Shown: positions 3,684-32,000 of the stretch, piece after piece
How positions within the stretch are numbered: the first letter of the stretch is position 1
How the letters are laid out: each line of letters starts with the position of its first letter
Assembly: GCF_000091665.1 (NCBI RefSeq)
Contig: NC_000909.1
Location: 503,581 to 535,580, forward strand
Direction of reading: 5' to 3'
Length of the DNA stretch: 32,000 nucleotides
Origin: Methanocaldococcus jannaschii DSM 2661
Lineage (GTDB): Archaea; AGJL01; Methanococci; Methanococcales; Methanocaldococcaceae
Notes under the pieces: model-generated
What the model was told of the DNA's origin: nothing
Database searches by the model: none
Seen by the model: the letters and a program-made list of their open reading frames with translations, nothing else
Program-made: the position numbers and the translations under genes

Positions 3684-4536
3684 GTTAAAATCAGACCGTT
3701 TCGGAATGGAAACTCTGATTTTAACTACCGAAATTTTTATATATGGATTTATATATAAATTGTTAAAATCAGACCGTTTCGGAATGGAAACTTTTATCCC
3801 TCCAAAAAATAAAAGAATAAATAAAAGTTAAAATCAGACCGTTTCGGAATGGAAACAGTGTAAATGAAGATTTCTTAACTATATTGCAACAAGCGTTAAA
3901 ATCAGACCGTTTCGGAATGGAAACAATTCTCTACAGAAACTAAATACAAATGACTTGTTAAAATCAGACCGTTTCGGAATGGAAACCAAAACATGAGTGC
4001 AGAAGAGGCAAATAACATTCTACAAGTTAAAATCAGACCGTTTCGGAATGGAAACCCCCCGAAAAGGTTGGAAACTCAGCAAAACTAATCGTTAAAATCA
4101 GACCGTTTCGGAATGGAAATATGGAACAAGAATGAGAATCTCTGGAGTGGATGTTATTAAAGTGTTAAAATCAGACCGTTTCGGAATGGAAACCTTATTG
4201 CCTCTTCAAATCTATAAACTATAGCATCAACACCGGTTAAAATCAGACCGTTTCGGAATGGAAACTTTTTATTTTAATAATGTTTCTATCATCTTAATTT
4301 TGAGTTAAAATCAGACCGTTTCGGAATGGAAACTTTTTATTTTAATAATGTTTCTATCATCTTAATTTTGAGTTAAAATCAGACCGTTTCGGAATGGAAA
4401 CAACTAAATCTAATTGAGATTTTTTTGGTTCATGTCTATTAAAATCAGACTGATTCGGAATGGAAACATAGTTCTTTTTCCTTCTACCTCCCAAAATTGT
4501 TTATAATTAAAATCAGACCTCTAAGAGGATGAAAAC
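3684..4536 (+). CRISPR. CRISPR array with 13 repeats and 12 spacers; consensus repeat gttaaaatcagaccgtttcggaatggaaac (30 nt)
   Basis: Repeats start at 3684, 3762, 3827, 3895, 3957, 4026, 4091 (ends ...aaat), 4164, 4236, 4304, 4372, 4438 (attaaaatcagactgattcggaatggaaac) and 4506 (attaaaatcagacctctaagaggatgaaaac, 31 nt). Spacer lengths are 48, 35, 38, 32, 39, 35, 43, 42, 38, 38, 36 and 38 nt. Orientation is inferred from the leader position and from the degenerate distal repeats. Confidence 0.97.
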
Positions 4537-11490: not shown

Positions 11491-11820
11491 TCACTCAAAT
11501 TTTTCTAATTTTCCTTCTAAAAATAGCTTTATGCATTCATCAATAGATGTTGTATTAGCTTTATAAACATCAATGCCAAGCTGTTTAAAAACACTGTATG
11601 CCTTAGGTCCTATATTTTGGACTATTATGGCATTTACACCCATATTTGCAATTAATGAGGCTGATGTAGTTCCAACTCCATGCATGCCATTTCTTGCAGT
11701 GTTTTCAATGATCTCTTTATTTTTTATCTCTCCATTTTCAATCTCTACAATCATGAATTTTTCACACCTTCCAAAGTGTGGAGATAGCCGATTGTTATCT
11801 ATAGGTAGAGCTATTTTCAT
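11491..11820 (-). CDS. NifX/NifB-C-terminal-like (dinitrogenase FeMo-cofactor-binding fold) small protein
   Basis: MKIALPIDNNRLSPHFGRCEKFMIVEI... is typical of the NifX/NifY/NafY-type domain. An SD GGTGA (complement of 11826-11830) lies 5 nt before ATG 11820. The track start is 11847. Confidence 0.8.
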   Translation of the reverse strand: MKIALPIDNNRLSPHFGRCEKFMIVEIENGEIKNKEIIENTARNGMHGVGTTSASLIANMGVNAIIVQNIGPKAYSVFKQLGIDVYKANTTSIDECIKLFLEGKLEKFE

Positions 11821-24981: not shown

Positions 24982-26034
24982 ATGAAGGTTGAAGAAATAT
25001 TGGAGAATGCAAGAAAGGCATTTAAATTAACAACAAAACATTTCGGAAATACAGTTACATTTGAGAGGGCTCTTTTTTTAGGTTGGTATTGTAATCTAAA
25101 ACAGCCATGTAAGTTTTGCTACATGGCTACACAGAAAAACAAAATAAAAGACCCAAGAAAGGCAAGAAGAAGATTGGAGAGTGTTTTAGCTGAGGCAATT
25201 TTAATGAAAAGAATTGGTTGGAAATTAGAGTTTATCTCTGGTGGTTATGGCTATACACCCAAAGAAATAAATGATATTGCTGAAATGGTGGCTTATGTTC
25301 AAAAATGTAGGCAGTATTTGAATGTTGGAGTTATTGATTTAGACAACATTAATTTGGATGTAATTGAAGGAGTTGTAGGGGCTGTTGAAACTGTAAGCAA
25401 AGATAGGGATTGGATTTGCCCAGGAAAGCCATTAGATAAGATTAAAGATAATTTATTAAAAGCTAAAGAATTGGGTTTAAAGACAGGGATAACAATAATA
25501 TTAGGATTAGGAGAAAAAGAGGAAGATATTGAGAAGTTATTAAATTTAATTGAGGAGTTGGATTTAAATAGAATTACCTTCTACTCTCTAAATCCACAAA
25601 AAGGAACTATTTATGAAAACAAACCATCAGTAACTACAATAGAGTATATGAACTGGGTTTCTTCTGTTAGGTTGAATTTCCCAAAGATTAAGATTATTAC
25701 TGGAGTTTGGGTTGACAAAATTCCAATGATAAGCCCATTAATTATGAGTGGCTCCAATGTAATAACCAAATTCCCATTATTTTCAGTATTTGGAACAAAG
25801 GAAGCTCATTGGATAGAGAAAGAGATTTTAGCAACTGGTAGAGAGTTGTTAGGGACATTTACAGATATTGATATCTTGGCTGGAAAAAAAGTGTTAGAGA
25901 AAACCCCATACATAGAGGAAGAGATAAATATAAGTAGCGAAAATATTAAGAGGGTTGAGGAGCTTAGAGAAAATATAAATGAGAGAATAGAAAGTTATGT
26001 ATCTAAAGTTTTAAGGAAGATTAAAGCCAGTTAA
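24982..26034 (+). CDS. Radical-SAM superfamily protein, BioB/HydE/HcgA-like, with a non-canonical CX5CX2C cluster motif
   Basis: GWYCNLKQPCKFCYMATQ sits where radical-SAM enzymes carry CX3CX2C, and is followed by a TIM-barrel-like pattern (FISGGYG..., ITIILGLGE). ATG 24982 follows the SD gggagagag. The track start at 24961 is TTG. Confidence 0.75.
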   Translation: MKVEEILENARKAFKLTTKHFGNTVTFERALFLGWYCNLKQPCKFCYMATQKNKIKDPRKARRRLESVLAEAILMKRIGWKLEFISGGYGYTPKEINDIAEMVAYVQKCRQYLNVGVIDLDNINLDVIEGVVGAVETVSKDRDWICPGKPLDKIKDNLLKAKELGLKTGITIILGLGEKEEDIEKLLNLIEELDLNRITFYSLNPQKGTIYENKPSVTTIEYMNWVSSVRLNFPKIKIITGVWVDKIPMISPLIMSGSNVITKFPLFSVFGTKEAHWIEKEILATGRELLGTFTDIDILAGKKVLEKTPYIEEEINISSENIKRVEELRENINERIESYVSKVLRKIKAS

Positions 26035-26053
26035 TCTAATTTTTTGGGATAAA

Positions 26054-26923
26054 ATGGAAGTTAAACCTTTTTTAAAATGGGCTGGAGGAAAAACACAAAT
26101 TTTAAGTCAAATAGAAGAAAATTTACCAAAAGAATTGAAGGAAGGAAACATTAAAAAATATATAGAACCCTTTGTTGGTGGAGGGGCAGTTTTATTTTAC
26201 CTTTTACAAAAATACGAATTTAAAAAAGTTATTATCAGTGATATTAACGAGGATTTGATGCTATGCTATAAAGTTGTTAAAAATGATGTCGATAGATTAA
26301 TTGAGGAGTTATCATCCTTAAGGGATGAATTTTTATCATTGGATGAAGAAAAAAGGAAAGAATTTTATTATAAAGTTAGAGATGACTTTAACAAAAACAA
26401 GAATGATTGTGATGAAGTTAAAAGAGTGGCACAGTTTATATTTTTAAATAAAACATGTTATAATGGGCTATATAGGGTTAATAAAAAAGGAGAATTTAAT
26501 GTTCCTTATGGAAGGTATAAAAACCCAAAGATTTTTGATGAACAAAATTTGAAAAATGTTTCAAAATTATTAAAGAACGTTAAAATCCTCTGTGGAGATT
26601 TTGAGATTGTTGATGAGTATGTTGATGCTGAAAGCTTTGTTTATTTCGATCCACCATATAAGCCGTTAAATAAAACATCTTCCTTCACATCCTATACAAA
26701 GTATGATTTTAACGATGATGATCAAATTAGATTGGCAAAATTTTATAGAAAATTGGATAAAAGAGGGGCTAAGTTGATGTTAAGCAACTCTTATAATGTT
26801 GATTTCTTTGGAAAGCTTTATGAGGGCTTTAATATAAAAAAGGTTGTTGCTAAGAGGATGATTAACTGCAAAGGAGATAAAAGAAAAGATGGTATATATG
26901 AGTTATTGATTATGAATTATTGA
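26054..26923 (+). CDS. mjaIIIM: Dam-family N6-adenine DNA methyltransferase (probable GATC specificity)
   Basis: The N-terminus PFLKWAGGKTQIL and the catalytic FVYFDPPY are as in E. coli Dam and DpnM. The gene symbol is from memory of REBASE/UniProt naming. Confidence 0.92.
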   Translation: MEVKPFLKWAGGKTQILSQIEENLPKELKEGNIKKYIEPFVGGGAVLFYLLQKYEFKKVIISDINEDLMLCYKVVKNDVDRLIEELSSLRDEFLSLDEEKRKEFYYKVRDDFNKNKNDCDEVKRVAQFIFLNKTCYNGLYRVNKKGEFNVPYGRYKNPKIFDEQNLKNVSKLLKNVKILCGDFEIVDEYVDAESFVYFDPPYKPLNKTSSFTSYTKYDFNDDDQIRLAKFYRKLDKRGAKLMLSNSYNVDFFGKLYEGFNIKKVVAKRMINCKGDKRKDGIYELLIMNY

Positions 26924-26942
26924 ATAATTTTAAGGTGATTTA

Positions 26943-27542
26943 ATGCAAATAAAGCCATTTGAAGAGAATAAGCCCTATCCAGAATGGGATCCAGATGAGC
27001 CAGATAAAGTCCCAGGAATTCCTAATTGGAATAGAAATTTTGGAAATATCATAATAGAATTTGATAAAGGTACTCGAACATGTTATTATCATAGAAAAAA
27101 GAAAAATAAATATGATGTTGAATGTGGAGATTACAGAATAAAAATTACGTATTCACAAAAAAATTGGAATAAAAAAGTAGTTTATGACAATGATGCTTGG
27201 AAATGGTTAGTTGATTGTTTAGATCCAACGGAAATTAATAAATTCTTATGCCATCTATGTAAAATACTTGATATGAATATAGATAAAGATGTTTATGATT
27301 ACCTAATCAATAATGTTAATTTTAGTGTAAATAACAATGACTTGAGGGCATTATTATATTATTTCTGGCATCGTGCAATCATTGAAGATAGAATATACTC
27401 ACAAAAGAAGGGATATAACGGAAGAAAGCAAGTAATTGGTGCAACTTATGAAGTATTAAAAGAATTACGTAATAATCAAAATAGAGTTTATTTATATGAA
27501 AAATGTGATGAGATTTATAAAATGGCAAAAAAGAAATTGTAA
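26943..27542 (+). CDS. Hypothetical 199-aa protein located between the methyltransferase and restriction genes
   Basis: An SD aaggtga lies upstream, 19 nt after the methyltransferase stop. No methyltransferase, HTH or nuclease motif was recognised by eye. Confidence 0.6.
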   Translation: MQIKPFEENKPYPEWDPDEPDKVPGIPNWNRNFGNIIIEFDKGTRTCYYHRKKKNKYDVECGDYRIKITYSQKNWNKKVVYDNDAWKWLVDCLDPTEINKFLCHLCKILDMNIDKDVYDYLINNVNFSVNNNDLRALLYYFWHRAIIEDRIYSQKKGYNGRKQVIGATYEVLKELRNNQNRVYLYEKCDEIYKMAKKKL

Positions 27543-27595
27543 AGAATTGTATAACGAATTAACGAAGAAACCATCAAAATAATTAAGGGATATTT

Positions 27596-28468
27596 ATGAA
27601 TTTTGAATACATCATTAACAGCCTCTTAGAAACCATAAAAACCTACAATTTCTTTGTAGATTGGGAAAAAATTGAAAATAATATAAAAAAGATAGAGAAA
27701 AGATTACATATCCTAAATTATCTAATTGGAAAAGAGAATTTTAAAGAGGAGTTTTTTGAATTACTAAAAGAGTATCCAGAGGTTATTACTGTTTTTCCAA
27801 TTTTAATAGCTGTTAGAGATAACAAAATAACAATTTTAAACGAAAATATGGAATTAGAAACCTTAGAATTTAAAGAAAAGAAATATTTAACTGATGAAGA
27901 AATTGAAAGATATTATAAATTTTTTAAAGAGACTGGATTGGAGGATTTGTTAAAAAATAGAAAAATAAAGAATTTAGTGGATTATGTTTTTGGTGTTGAG
28001 GTAGGAATGGACACCAATGCAAGGAAAAATAGAATTGGAGATTTAATGGAAAATATTGTTAAAAAATATATTGAAAATCTATGCAAACAAAATAAAAACC
28101 TTGATTATATCTTCCAAGCAACAAAAGATAAAATAAAACAAAAATGGGGAATAAATTTAACATTGGATAAAACAAATAGAAAATTTGATTTTGCAGTTTT
28201 TAATAAAAACACTAAAAAGTTATATCTCATTGAAGTTAATTTTTATAGTGGAGGAGGTTCAAAGTTAAAAGCTACTGCTGGAGAGTATAGATCATTAAAT
28301 GAATTTATAAAAAACAATAACAATAATGTTCAATTTATATGGATAACTGATGGAAAGGGATGGAATACAGCAAAGAATCCATTAAAAGAAAGTTTTAATA
28401 GTGGAGTTGTTATATTAAACTTAAAAATGGTTAAAGAAGGATTATTAAAAGAAATATTAACTCAGTAA
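27596..28468 (+). CDS. mjaIIIR: DpnII/MboI-family type II restriction endonuclease (probable GATC)
   Basis: The N-terminal region FFVDW...LNYLIGKENFKEEFFELLKEYPEVITVFPILIAVR resembles DpnII/MboI family proteins as I remember them. It is adjacent to a Dam-type methyltransferase. Confidence 0.8.
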   Translation: MNFEYIINSLLETIKTYNFFVDWEKIENNIKKIEKRLHILNYLIGKENFKEEFFELLKEYPEVITVFPILIAVRDNKITILNENMELETLEFKEKKYLTDEEIERYYKFFKETGLEDLLKNRKIKNLVDYVFGVEVGMDTNARKNRIGDLMENIVKKYIENLCKQNKNLDYIFQATKDKIKQKWGINLTLDKTNRKFDFAVFNKNTKKLYLIEVNFYSGGGSKLKATAGEYRSLNEFIKNNNNNVQFIWITDGKGWNTAKNPLKESFNSGVVILNLKMVKEGLLKEILTQ

Positions 28469-28570
28469 TATTAGATTTAAAATTGTGAATGATACCATTA
28501 TTCAATTTCCAAAATGTATAAAAACTTGATCTTGAAAATAATATTGAAACTAAACTTTAAATAATATTAA

Positions 28571-29383
<813 letters not shown>

Positions 29384-29385
29384 TT

Positions 29386-30171
29386 TTAATTTTTTATACT
29401 CTCTTTTAATAAAACAATCTGCTCTCTCAATTTGTGATTTCCCACTTTTCTGGCAATATTTAAAATTGATTCAATCTCTTCATCAAAATTTTTTAAAATG
29501 CCTTCCTCAATTCTATAAATCTTTAAATTTATTAAGAAGAGGGCTTCATAATCAAAAGATGATTTAAATTCTTTTTTGTCTATAAAGTCTTTAACCATCT
29601 CTAAAATTTTTATAATTGACAATCTCTTCTGTATAAATTCTTCAGTTAATTTTCTCCTTCTTCTTCCAGTTAATAATAGCTCAATCTCATTTTTTAATTC
29701 ATAACTTCCAACTCTTAAAGCCATGTTAGTTAAGCTCCTAACTTCGGAATTATAATCTAAAACAATCCCATTATCCAACCTCAAAATTTTTAAACCAATT
29801 AGATTTAGGATGAGTTTATCTTCATAAGATTTGTATGGCTTCTTCTCTATATAACTCTTTAGATACTCTAAAATCTCAATAATCTTTTTTATTTTATTTT
29901 TTTGGGATTTTGTTAATCTTTTCCTTTCTCCAAATAGTAAAAGGCTTATTTCCCTCTTCATATCAAAACTACCAACTTTTTTAGCTATTTCTGAAATTTT
30001 GCTTGCTATTGGTAATATATCATCATCTAAAACATATCCTTTTTCAAGGTAATCTAACATCAATCTTATAATTGCCTTCTCATCACTGCCTTCCTTTGCA
30101 TACATCTCTAAAATTTCTAAAATATGTATAAATTGCTCAATAATCTCTATTTTGCTTTTTTCTAACAGCAT
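29386..30171 (-). CDS. Hypothetical helical protein built of three tandem ~88-aa repeats
   Basis: The internal repeat signature A(K/R)(K/R)VG(S/N)x(D/E/K)(M/L)K..I.LL recurs with VG at residues 66-67, 154-155 and 243-244. Units 1 and 2 end in basic linkers (GERKRLT and GRRRRKLT). Confidence 0.6.
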   Translation of the reverse strand: MLLEKSKIEIIEQFIHILEILEMYAKEGSDEKAIIRLMLDYLEKGYVLDDDILPIASKISEIAKKVGSFDMKREISLLLFGERKRLTKSQKNKIKKIIEILEYLKSYIEKKPYKSYEDKLILNLIGLKILRLDNGIVLDYNSEVRSLTNMALRVGSYELKNEIELLLTGRRRRKLTEEFIQKRLSIIKILEMVKDFIDKKEFKSSFDYEALFLINLKIYRIEEGILKNFDEEIESILNIARKVGNHKLREQIVLLKESIKN

Positions 30172-31559: not shown

Positions 31560-31862
31560 TTAATACAACACTCTTCCTTCCTCTAAAACATTCCTATGGA
31601 ATGACCAATTTATTTTTTTATTAAATAATTCCTCACTCTCAACAATTGCATTTATAACAACTCCATACTTCAATAGCAATTTAGTGCATAAATCAATAAC
31701 ATAATCAAAATCCACATCCCCAACTATTAAAATGTCAATATCACTCTCTTCAGTGTAATCTCCCCTTGCATAGCTACCAAATAGTATAATTTTCTTAATT
31801 CTACCTCTATATTTTGATTTTAATGCATTCACAAACTCTTTTATTGCTTTTTCTTCATTCAT
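31560..31862 (-). CDS. Minimal nucleotidyltransferase (MNT), antitoxin-type partner of a HEPN protein
   Basis: The GS-x-ARG-x(n)-SDIDILIV motif ([22 protein letters not shown]). The protein is 100 aa, and its ATG overlaps the upstream HEPN stop (ATGA). Confidence 0.85.
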
Positions 31863-32000
31863 AATATCTCCTTTAATGCCTTTTTTATCCTATCAACAAA
31901 CATCTCCGCCTCATATATTATTGATTCTGCTTCTTCTTCAGTTGGCTTGTCAGTTGTATAATCTGCCTTCCATCTTAAATTATAACTTTTTGTTATTATT
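31859..32000 (-). CDS. HEPN-domain protein, C-terminal part (the ORF runs off the right edge)
   Basis: The frame ending at TGA (complement of 31859-31861) reads ...[46 protein letters not shown]. The R-x-x-ADY segment and the helical tail resemble small HEPN proteins paired with MNTs. Confidence 0.65.
   Translation of the reverse strand, partial: IITKSYNLRWKADYTTDKPTEEEAESIIYEAEMFVDRIKKALKEIL

What the first reader, a model, noticed from the sequence alone, without database searches (positions are those of the whole stretch)
26054..28468. GATC-type restriction-modification cassette whose middle slot holds an unrecognisable 199-aa protein instead of a second methyltransferase
The cassette is a Dam-like methyltransferase (26054-26923; FLKWAGGK and DPPY motifs) followed by a DpnII/MboI-like endonuclease (27596-28468). 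This mirrors the DpnII-type cassettes, which as I recall are three-gene units with a second methyltransferase.

Here the gene wedged between them (26943-27542) has its own SD and a 19-nt gap to the methyltransferase gene. I could see no SAM-binding, DPPY, HTH or obvious nuclease motif in it. It is rich in W/Y/N/K and has paired Cys residues (CYYH...ECGD, CLDP...CHLC).

Its tight embedding suggests a functional link. It could be a controller, a specificity or ssDNA-protection factor, or an independent defence or anti-defence gene riding in the cassette. The cassette is also even more AT-rich than its neighbours by eye, which is consistent with horizontal acquisition.
Basis: partly seen in the sequence, partly recalled or inferred. 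Interest (0 to 1): 0.65.

Follow-up and report, generated by a model that had tools for sequence, protein, structure and literature searches.

The report
Unknown third gene in GATC restriction cassette
Between the methylase and the nuclease of a known archaeal GATC restriction system sits a real gene from a rare, undescribed protein family that turns up next to GATC restriction-modification genes in distant archaea and bacteria, so it is probably an optional third component whose job is still unknown.

Summary
The cassette is a Dam-class methyltransferase (26054-26923), a 199-aa ORF (26943-27542) and a DpnII-family endonuclease (27596-28468). The outer two genes appear to be the characterised MjaIII (GATC) system.

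The middle ORF ("X") has no hit in Pfam, NCBIfam, PADLOC, PHROGs or PDB. An exhaustive HMMER scan of 1.84 billion proteins found about 20 relatives at 27-42% identity.

In 11 of 14 informative neighbourhoods these relatives lie directly beside a GATC-type gene: a Dam or DpnA-like methylase, or a DpnII or MutH/Sau3AI-like nuclease. Gene order and strand vary.

X is dispensable. Methanocaldococcus sp. 16A has the same M-R pair (89-92% identity) with a 34-nt spacer and no X. X also diverges faster than its neighbours.

With a 19-sequence alignment AlphaFold gives a confident model (pLDDT 88, pTM 0.88): a β-domain followed by a helical bundle. Foldseek finds no match in PDB or BFVD. Invariant residues D63, D82, H143, R144, E148 and R150 suggest an active or DNA-contact site.

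My best reading (confidence about 0.45) is an optional accessory that acts on GATC DNA itself rather than on a particular partner enzyme. A controller, a guard toxin and a second nuclease remain open. It is a new variant of a known kind, of moderate to high interest.

The parts
26054..26923 (+). Dam-class (D12) N6-adenine DNA methyltransferase, corresponding to M.MjaIII (GATC)
   Evidence: PF02086 at 2e-82 and TIGR00571 at 355 bits against a cutoff of 115. FLKWAGGK and FDPPY motifs are read directly. It is 89% identical to the methylase of Methanocaldococcus sp. 16A. MjaIII GATC/m6A is reported in PMC2615612 and PMC11033074.
26924..26942 (+). 19-nt M-X spacer carrying the ribosome-binding site of X (GGTGAT at 26934-26939)
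   Evidence: Read. M and R have the same style of site (GGGAT plus 3-4 nt plus ATG). There is no oligo-T terminator, so co-transcription is inferred.
26943..27542 (+). X: a 199-aa member of an undescribed protein family associated with GATC R-M systems. It has an N-terminal β-domain (about residues 1-80) and a C-terminal five-helix bundle (82-177) with the invariant W142-H143-R144..E148..R150..Y152 motif.
   Evidence: About 20 homologues were found, with alignments and invariant residues. The AF2 model has pLDDT 87.9 and pTM 0.88. There is no fold match and no family match.
26941..27577 (.). Indel of about 636 bp relative to the M-R cassette of Methanocaldococcus sp. 16A. It comprises the X ORF plus its 3' tail, lying between two SD-like motifs.
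   Evidence: In L001 the M stop and the R start are separated by 34 nt. Homology to the window resumes at ...AAGG(T)GAT on the left and at (T/G)A(A/G)GGGATA..ATTTATG on the right.
27543..27595 (+). 53-nt X-R spacer carrying the ribosome-binding site of R (AAGGGAT)
   Evidence: Read. The last approximately 18 nt are conserved with sp. 16A.
27596..28468 (+). DpnII-family Type II restriction endonuclease, corresponding to R.MjaIII (GATC)
   Evidence: PF04556 at 1.1e-105. It is 92% identical to the sp. 16A endonuclease and 64% identical to the DpnII-family gene flanking an X homologue in L008. R.MjaIII activity is shown in PMC2615612 and PMC4752239.

Best explanation
**What it is.** The cassette is the known MjaIII GATC restriction-modification pair (Dam-class methylase plus DpnII-family endonuclease). 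Between the two genes it has acquired or kept an optional third gene, X.

X belongs to a rare, fast-evolving protein family that is in no curated library. Its predicted fold, a β-domain plus a helical bundle, matches no solved structure.

**What is shown:**
- X is a real gene with about 20 relatives.
- Those relatives are found in archaea and bacteria, in DNA of 19-51% GC.
- They lie directly beside GATC-type methylases of two unrelated classes, or beside GATC nucleases of at least two unrelated families.
- Gene order and strand vary from one locus to the next.
- A sister species has the same M-R pair without X. I infer from this, and from the cloned MjaIII endonuclease gene being active (PMC4752239), that the system works without X.

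**What is inferred:**
- The only constant partner of X is GATC methylation and restriction, not any one enzyme family. X therefore most likely acts on the shared substrate or product. That could be GATC DNA in a given methylation state, or the common 5'-GATC cleavage end. It is less likely to dock onto a particular M or R protein or to act as a transcription factor.
- The invariant residues K/R45, D63, Y64, D82, E/D114, H143, R144, E148, R150 and Y152 look like a catalytic or DNA-contact site.
- I therefore read X as an accessory DNA-binding or DNA-processing factor that augments or tunes GATC restriction. It would depend on the adjacent methylase to spare host DNA.
- In this window M, X and R are probably co-transcribed.
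For: **Family exists.** The exhaustive HMMER search gave 20 hits with E<=1e-3, the best at 37-42% identity over the full length. The motifs YPxWNP, IPxIPNW, FxxGxK, GDYxI and LYxxWHRxxIE[DE]RxYP are conserved.

**Neighbourhoods:**
- Window: M > X > R.
- L008: DpnII(-), X(+), Dam(-), next to an integrase.
- L005-7: Uma2 > X > Dam > PDDEXK_11, inserted in a liv operon.
- L011: X > Dam.
- L009, L010 and L021: X convergent with a DpnA-like methylase 0-10 nt away. L021 also has Dam, PDDEXK_11, GmrSD and DpnII.
- L018: N6_N4 methylase > X.
- L019: Dam > MutH/Sau3AI-like > X.
- L016: two paralogous X > MutH-like pairs flanked by N6_N4 and Dam methylases.

**GATC specificity of these hosts.** GATC is strongly under-represented in the window and in L001, L005, L008, L016, L019 and L021.

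**Dispensable.** The sp. 16A cassette lacks X.

**Fast evolution.** Identities between the window and L008 are R 64%, M 47% and X 29%. In L016 the X paralogues are 37% identical while their MutH-like partners are 62% identical.

**Structure.** The model is confident and has no fold match.

**Not viral or plasmid-borne**.
Against: - No biochemical or structural homology ties X to DNA binding or catalysis. The mechanism is inferred only from gene context and residue conservation.
- Family pI ranges from 5.1 to 9.7, so X is not a uniformly basic DNA binder.
- Three of the 14 contexts show no methylase or nuclease next to X: L012, L015 and the P0011 contig. All three are short or truncated contigs.
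- L009, L010 and L021 are closely related, so the independent count is nearer 9 of 12.
- GATC specificity of the neighbouring enzymes is inferred from family membership and GATC depletion, not measured.
- The AF2 model rests on only 19 sequences, and AlphaFold DB could not be searched.
- A protein that reads a fixed DNA motif would not obviously be expected to diverge faster than M and R.
Confidence: 0.45

Rival explanations
1. X is itself a GATC-specific, methylation-sensitive endonuclease, nickase or glycosylase with a new fold. It would be a second R activity, held harmless by the adjacent methylase.
For: - X is always tightly linked to an m6A methylase, in any orientation, as R genes are.
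- It has the size of a small restriction enzyme and evolves fast.
- It has invariant acidic residues plus His and Arg.
- Its sequence is unrecognisable, as is typical of restriction enzymes.
Against: - Wherever enough sequence is visible, another nuclease candidate is already present: DpnII, MutH-like or PDDEXK_11. No clear system of X plus methylase alone was seen.
- The predicted fold matches no known nuclease fold, whether PD-(D/E)XK, HNH, GIY-YIG, PLD or half-pipe.
Confidence: 0.15
2. X is a controller of the cassette, analogous to C proteins. It would delay or tune expression of R (or M) when the cassette enters a new host.
For: - X lies immediately upstream of the nuclease gene in the window and in both L016 pairs.
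- In L008 it is divergent from R across a 50-nt spacer.
- It is non-essential.
Against: - No HTH or other DNA-binding domain is detected by sequence or fold.
- No palindromic operator was seen in the short spacers.
- The position is not consistent: X is downstream of R in L019 and convergent with M in L008, L009 and L021.
- A transcription factor would not be expected to track GATC specificity across unrelated enzyme families.
- The conserved Asp/Glu/His cluster is atypical for a repressor.
Confidence: 0.15
3. X is an independent defence or abortive-infection effector, a 'guard' like PrrC inside EcoprrI. It would ride in the cassette and fire when the R-M system is inhibited or overwhelmed.
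For: - X is embedded in an R-M cassette and in defence islands containing GmrSD and NACHT genes.
- It diverges rapidly, as expected for a protein in an arms race.
- It is absent from phages and plasmids.
Against: - There are no PADLOC hits for any of the 19 members scanned.
- A guard that docks onto its R-M partner should track one enzyme family, but X is found with three or more.
- There is no toxin-like or NTPase domain.
Confidence: 0.15
4. X is a hitchhiking or selfish ORF with no role in restriction-modification. It would persist simply because R-M cassettes are mobile and addictive.
For: - X shows presence/absence polymorphism between near-identical cassettes.
- It is inverted in L008.
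- It is rare.
Against: - Association with GATC-type genes recurs through 27-42% sequence divergence, across domains of life, and in at least five different gene arrangements. This is hard to explain without selection for linkage.
- No transposase, integrase or homing-nuclease features are present.
- No flanking repeats were found.
Confidence: 0.08

Closest known systems
DpnII / MboI / LlaDCHI-type GATC cassettes (dpnM-dpnA-dpnB)
   Same: These also have a Dam-class methylase first, a DpnII-family endonuclease last, and a third gene in between on the same strand. They share GATC specificity. The architecture is taken from my own knowledge of Lacks et al. The family assignments of M and R were tested here.
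   Different: In those cassettes the middle gene is a second methylase acting on single-stranded DNA (DpnA, β-class). Here it is an unrelated protein with no SAM or DPPY motifs. In L021 X co-occurs with a DpnA-like methylase rather than replacing it.
MjaIII R-M system of Methanocaldococcus jannaschii (MJ0598/MJ0600)
   Same: The outer two genes of the cassette appear to be this system. R.MjaIII is active, and M.MjaIII makes m6A at GATC (PMC2615612, PMC4752239, PMC11033074).
   Different: The papers found describe only M and R. A full-text search for MJ0599 returned nothing. Mapping the window to the MJ locus numbers rests on my own knowledge.
C (controller) proteins of Type II R-M systems
   Same: They are small, non-essential extra genes inside R-M cassettes, often just upstream of R.
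   Different: C proteins are Xre-type HTH proteins of about 80-100 aa with C-box operators. X is 157-234 aa, has no HTH, has a different predicted fold, and sits in variable positions.
PrrC / RloC embedded in Type I R-M loci; Vsr next to Dcm-type methylases
   Same: These are precedents for an accessory gene that is genetically welded to an R-M or methylase gene and serves as a back-up or corrective function.
   Different: There is no sequence, domain or fold similarity. PrrC has an ABC-ATPase domain plus an anticodon nuclease, and Vsr is a PD-(D/E)XK-like nickase. X is tied to m6A/GATC rather than to Type I or m5C systems.
R.PabI ('half-pipe' restriction glycosylase of Pyrococcus)
   Same: It is a precedent for an archaeal R-M component with an unrecognisable sequence and a new fold, discovered by genome comparison (my own knowledge).
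   Different: No PabI structure appeared among the Foldseek matches. No activity is known for X.

Membership tests
DpnII-type GATC Type II R-M cassette | Dam-class (D12, α-type) N6-adenine methyltransferase | tested here: met
   PF02086 at 2e-82; TIGR00571 at 355 bits against a cutoff of 115; FxGxG-like and DPPY motifs present.
DpnII-type GATC Type II R-M cassette | DpnII-family restriction endonuclease | tested here: met
   PF04556 at 1.1e-105 over the full length.
DpnII-type GATC Type II R-M cassette | Recognition and cleavage of unmethylated GATC; m6A protection | not testable with these tools
   The literature on MjaIII supports it. Indirect support here: GATC occurs 3 times against 76-84 expected outside the cassette.
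DpnII-type GATC Type II R-M cassette | Second methyltransferase (DpnA-like, β-class) as the middle gene | tested here: not met
   The middle ORF has no methyltransferase hit. hhalign against a DpnA-like methylase gives probability 0.2%, and against M 1.5%.
C (controller) proteins | Xre-type helix-turn-helix domain of about 80-100 aa | tested here: not met
   No HTH family matched any of the 19 members. The model is a β-domain plus a five-helix bundle. No C-protein structure appears among the Foldseek matches.
C (controller) proteins | Palindromic C-box operator upstream of the C/R unit | tested here: inconclusive
   No convincing inverted repeat was found in the 19-nt and 53-nt spacers. No consensus is known for this family.
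Known restriction-nuclease folds (PD-(D/E)XK, HNH, GIY-YIG, PLD, half-pipe) | Recognisable catalytic core by sequence or structure | tested here: not met
   Pfam and PDB profile searches are negative. Foldseek against PDB gives a best E of 0.19 and TM of 0.27 or less. AlphaFold DB was not available.
Known anti-phage defence proteins (PADLOC) and phage protein families (PHROGs) | Match to a defence-system or phage-family HMM | tested here: not met
   PADLOC gave 0 of 19 members. PHROGs gave only weak chance-level hits with E of 0.015 or more.
New 'GATC R-M-associated protein' family (proposed here) | Shared motifs GDYxI ... D ... WHRxxIE[DE]RxYP, and adjacency to a GATC-type methylase or nuclease | tested here: met
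   The window protein carries all invariant residues. It lies between M and R. Eleven of 14 contexts of relatives show the same linkage.

The most novel reading that the evidence does not exclude
X defines a previously unrecognised third component of GATC-specific restriction-modification systems, shared by archaea and bacteria. It would be a new-fold enzyme that reads the methylation state of GATC DNA, or the 5'-GATC ends left by restriction. It would then cut, nick, excise or process that DNA, making restriction harder for invaders to repair or evade.
Probability: 0.3. Interest if true: 0.8.

Novelty: new variant of a known kind. Interest (0 to 1): 0.6.

Why it matters
Type II restriction-modification systems are usually treated as complete two-gene units, sometimes with a C protein or a second methylase added. 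A conserved extra protein that tracks one recognition sequence (GATC) across unrelated methylase and nuclease families would point to a new layer of function acting on the DNA site or on the cleavage product.

It would also add a new protein fold, and possibly a new DNA-reading or DNA-processing activity usable as a reagent. It is directly testable, because MjaIII has been cloned, E. coli dam- hosts exist, and a natural cassette without X is available in a sister species.

Tried and rejected
**Single-sequence searches of X.** Pfam, NCBIfam, PADLOC, PHROGs and PDB (phmmer) all returned only chance-level hits.

**Word-indexed homology search.** It found only a 99%-identical copy. That copy lies on an ENA contig that is essentially the same genome, with 2 SNPs in 6 kb, so it is uninformative for selection.

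**Single-sequence AlphaFold model.** It was unusable at pLDDT 44.

**Profile searches.** The PDB profile search and the per-member Pfam and PADLOC scans gave nothing consistent.

**Foldseek on the good model.** Against PDB and BFVD there was no hit with E<=0.001 and all TM-scores were low. Domain-wise searches and AlphaFold DB were not possible.

**tblastn against phage and plasmid collections.**
- Window X was searched against INPHARED phages and PLSDB plasmids.
- Three other subfamily members were searched against PLSDB.
- Three IMG/VR scans were run.
- None found a relative.

**Repeat search around the cassette.** No terminal inverted repeats and no convincing target duplication were found for X.

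**Hypotheses rejected:**
- X as a diverged methylase or a detached piece of R (hhalign).
- Zinc-finger Cys pairs as a family feature.
- The long hits P0006 (2762 aa, no discrete matched stretch) and P0013 (1866 aa, 12 stretches at 19% identity). I judge these to be compositional artefacts rather than domain fusions.

**Failed or unavailable steps:**
- MAFFT misplaced the indel in the first DNA alignment. It was redone by hand.
Full report
**1. The observation**

ORF listing and direct reading confirm three same-strand genes at exactly the stated coordinates:
- M, 26054-26923, 289 aa.
- A middle ORF, 26943-27542, 199 aa, called X below.
- R, 27596-28468, 290 aa.

M is a Dam-class methyltransferase. 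It matches PF02086 at 2e-82 and TIGR00571 at 355 bits against a cutoff of 115. R is a DpnII-family endonuclease, matching PF04556 at 1e-105.

The spacers are 19 nt and 53 nt, with no oligo-T run. All three genes carry the same kind of ribosome-binding site, GGTGAT or GGGAT followed by 3-4 nt and the ATG. Co-transcription is likely, but this is an inference.

X is not a chance ORF:
- None of 20,000 shuffles of its sequence stays open.
- The codon-frame score is positive only in the annotated frame.
- GC1 > GC2 > GC3.
- It has homologues whose N-termini coincide with its own.

**2. Identity of the cassette**

The window is Methanocaldococcus-like:
- An ENA contig is identical apart from 2 SNPs in 6 kb.
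- Methanocaldococcus sp. 16A has an M that is 89% identical and an R that is 92% identical.

From my own knowledge the arrangement corresponds to MJ0598/MJ0599/MJ0600, the MjaIII system. The literature shows that R.MjaIII (MJ0600) is an active GATC endonuclease. It also shows that M.MjaIII makes m6A at GATC (PMC2615612, PMC4752239, PMC11033074). A full-text search for MJ0599 returned nothing. The outer genes are therefore known, and the middle one is not.

**3. X has no recognisable domain but does have a family**

Pfam, NCBIfam, PADLOC, PHROGs and PDB sequence searches give only chance-level hits. The word-indexed search of 5.8 billion proteins found only a 99%-identical copy of X, from a near-identical genome.

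The exhaustive HMMER scan of 1.84 billion cluster representatives found 20 proteins with E<=1e-3. The best are full-length at 37-42% identity. Two long hits (P0006, P0013) look like compositional artefacts.

Alignments and a conservation count show invariant or nearly invariant residues: Y12, P13, P27, F40, G43, K/R45, G62, D63, Y64, D82, E/D114, W142, H143, R144, E148, R150, Y152 and G160. These fall in the motifs GDYxI and LYxxWHRxxIE[DE]RxYP.

No member matches any Pfam or PADLOC model consistently. Profile comparison with M, R and a DpnA-like methylase gives a probability of at most 1.5%. X is therefore neither a decayed methylase nor a detached part of the nuclease.

**4. Structure**

Without an alignment AlphaFold fails (pLDDT 44). 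With the 19-sequence alignment it gives pLDDT 87.9 and pTM 0.88:
- an N-terminal arm and a β-meander domain, residues about 1-80;
- a five-helix bundle, residues 82-177, whose fourth helix carries the WHR..IE[DE]R motif;
- a disordered tail.

Foldseek finds no match with E<=0.001 in PDB or BFVD. The best E-values are 0.19 and 0.14, with TM-scores of 0.27 or less against PDB and similarly low full-length scores against BFVD. AlphaFold DB was not available, so 'new fold' is provisional.

**5. Neighbourhoods of relatives (the key test)**

| Locus | Arrangement |
|---|---|
| Window | Dam > X > DpnII |
| L008 | DpnII(-), X(+), Dam(-), then an integrase |
| L005-7 | Uma2 > X > Dam > PDDEXK_11 nuclease, a four-gene block inside a liv ABC-transporter operon |
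| L011 | X, 77 nt, Dam |
| L009, L010 | X convergent with a β-class N6_N4 methylase about 10 nt away |
| L021 | X convergent with such a methylase (0 nt), then Dam > PDDEXK_11 > GmrSD > DpnII |
| L018 | N6_N4 methylase, 2 nt, X |
| L019/L020 | Dam > MutH/Sau3AI-like nuclease > X |
| L016 | two paralogous X > MutH-like pairs, flanked by an N6_N4 and a Dam methylase |
| L015 | X followed by a HARE-HTH protein; no methylase or nuclease visible |
| L012 | KilA-N-like and ThiC flanks; no methylase or nuclease visible |
| P0011 contig | no methylase or nuclease visible; contig is truncated just after X |

Additional details:
- In L008, R is 64% and M is 47% identical to the window's genes.
- The β-class methylases beside X are 52-60% identical to the methylase that sits beside a DpnII gene in L002.
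- The MutH-like protein in L019 matches NF040973 at 1.8e-20.

Overall, 11 of 14 informative contexts have a GATC-type methylase or nuclease directly adjacent. L009, L010 and L021 are close relatives, so the independent count is nearer 9 of 12.

The hosts and elements are strongly depleted in GATC, which fits active GATC restriction.

**6. X is optional, mobile and fast-evolving**

In Methanocaldococcus sp. 16A, M and R are separated by only 34 nt. A related MAG has the same downstream flank as sp. 16A, although its contig starts inside R. In both, the cassette lies at a different chromosomal site, next to eIF2α and Nop10.

Hand alignment puts the difference at about 636 bp, window 26941-27577. 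That is the X ORF plus its 3' tail, lying between two SD-like motifs that sp. 16A retains. Whether this is an insertion in the window's lineage or a deletion in sp. 16A cannot be decided.

L008 has an X in the same slot, but it belongs to another subfamily (29% identity) and is on the opposite strand. In both comparisons X diverges faster than its neighbours:
- Window versus L008: R 64%, M 47%, X 29%.
- Within L016: X paralogues 37%, their MutH-like partners 62%.

No relative was found in INPHARED, PLSDB or IMG/VR. A phage anti-defence role is therefore unlikely.

**7. Horizontal acquisition**

GC is somewhat lower in the cassette (24-28%) than in the window overall (31%), but not uniquely so.

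A stronger sign is GATC content. The cassette has 5 GATC sites against 5-6.5 expected. The other 29.6 kb has 3 against 76-84 expected. CTAG (0 against 59) and GTAC (2 against 24), the MjaI and MjaV sites, are similarly purged. Together with the different location in sp. 16A, this supports mobility of the cassette.

**8. Mechanism**

*Shown:*
- X is a real gene and a family member.
- The family is linked to GATC R-M genes.
- A sister cassette exists without X.
- The model is confident and has no fold match in PDB or BFVD.

*Inferred:*
- R-M function does not require X. This rests on the X-less sister cassette and on the cloned MjaIII endonuclease gene being active (PMC4752239).
- X keeps company with two unrelated methylase classes and at least two unrelated nuclease families. 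All that these share is the GATC site and, for the nucleases, the 5'-GATC end. X therefore most likely acts on DNA, on the site in a given methylation state or on the cleavage product, rather than on one partner protein.
- The invariant Asp/Asp/Glu/His/Arg/Arg/Tyr set looks like an active or DNA-contact site.

I commit, at about 0.45, to 'an optional DNA-level accessory that augments or tunes GATC restriction and relies on the adjacent methylase for self-protection'.

*Rivals:*
- A stand-alone new-fold GATC nuclease (0.15). Against it, another nuclease is always present where enough sequence is visible.
- A C-protein-like controller (0.15). Against it, there is no HTH, the position is inconsistent, and a repressor would not be expected to track a recognition sequence.
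- A PrrC-like guard or abortive-infection effector (0.15). It fits the fast evolution and the defence islands, but X does not track one enzyme family.
- A hitchhiking ORF (0.08).

*Weak points:*
- pI varies from 5.1 to 9.7.
- The alignment is shallow.
- There is no biochemical evidence.

**9. Comparison with known systems and novelty**

The cassette works like, and in its outer genes belongs to, the DpnII/MboI-type GATC systems. It fails the 'second methylase' feature of the three-gene DpnII layout.

X fails every test for membership of C proteins, methylases, known nuclease folds, PADLOC defence proteins and PHROG families. It is best filed as a new variant of a known kind: a known R-M system carrying an undescribed, conserved accessory family.

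Interest is about 0.6. It is not a revolution, but it is a specific, cheap-to-test lead to a new R-M component and a possible new fold or activity.

Noticed in passing
window 3684-4467: A CRISPR array of 12 repeats matching Rfam RF01326 (CRISPR-DR13). Tandem Repeats Finder reports a 68-nt unit repeated 2.4 times at 100% identity at 4236-4401, so one spacer appears to be duplicated in the array.
   Followed up: no
whole window; GATC at 11710, 20721, 26648, 26720, 26988, 27222, 28290, 28528: Restriction sites are extremely avoided outside the cassette: GATC 3 against about 76-84 expected, CTAG 0 against 59, GTAC 2 against 24. The cassette itself carries GATC at the expected density, 5 against 5-6.5. 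Two of the GATC sites lie inside X, at the WDP and LDP codons.
   Followed up: partly
window 26017-26040 and 28570-28593: An imperfect 24-nt direct repeat (75% identity, sharing AATCTAAT) brackets the whole M-X-R cassette. One copy is at the end of the radical-SAM gene and the other at the start of thi4 (family D9). It could be a target duplication from cassette insertion, or chance in AT-rich DNA. The empty site in a relative could not be fetched.
   Followed up: no
L005 6911-7447 and L021 8306-8875: A PD-(D/E)XK protein of about 180 aa (PF20472, PDDEXK_11) follows the Dam-class methylase in two distant loci and is 55% identical between them. It may be a further conserved partner, or the nuclease, of these GATC modules. 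In L021 it coexists with a DpnII-family gene and GmrSD.
   Followed up: partly
L005 5029-7447 (also L006, L007): A four-gene block, Uma2 > X homologue > Dam > PDDEXK_11, is inserted with overlapping or abutting stops and starts between livM-like permease and livG-like ATPase genes of a branched-chain amino-acid ABC transporter operon. It looks like an R-M-type 'operon insertion'.
   Followed up: no
L016 6001-11818: Two paralogous X > MutH-like gene pairs lie in one defence-island-like region, together with an HTH_26 gene, an N6_N4 methylase and a Dam methylase. An EAD8 protein and a 1692-aa NACHT/TPR protein lie next to them.
   Followed up: partly
window 29386-30171 (- strand): A 261-aa ORF with no Pfam hit on record for the identical gene in L004, low GC (26%), and what looks by eye like three internal repeats of about 85 aa (...LLLxGxRRRxL...IIxILExxKxxIxKKxxKS...). 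It lies between thi4 and hemL.
   Followed up: no
window about 31560-32000 (- strand; from the identical contig L004 6004-6698): A nucleotidyltransferase (PF01909) / HEPN (PF05168) gene pair, a typical MNT-HEPN toxin-antitoxin module, lies just past hemL at the window's end.
   Followed up: no
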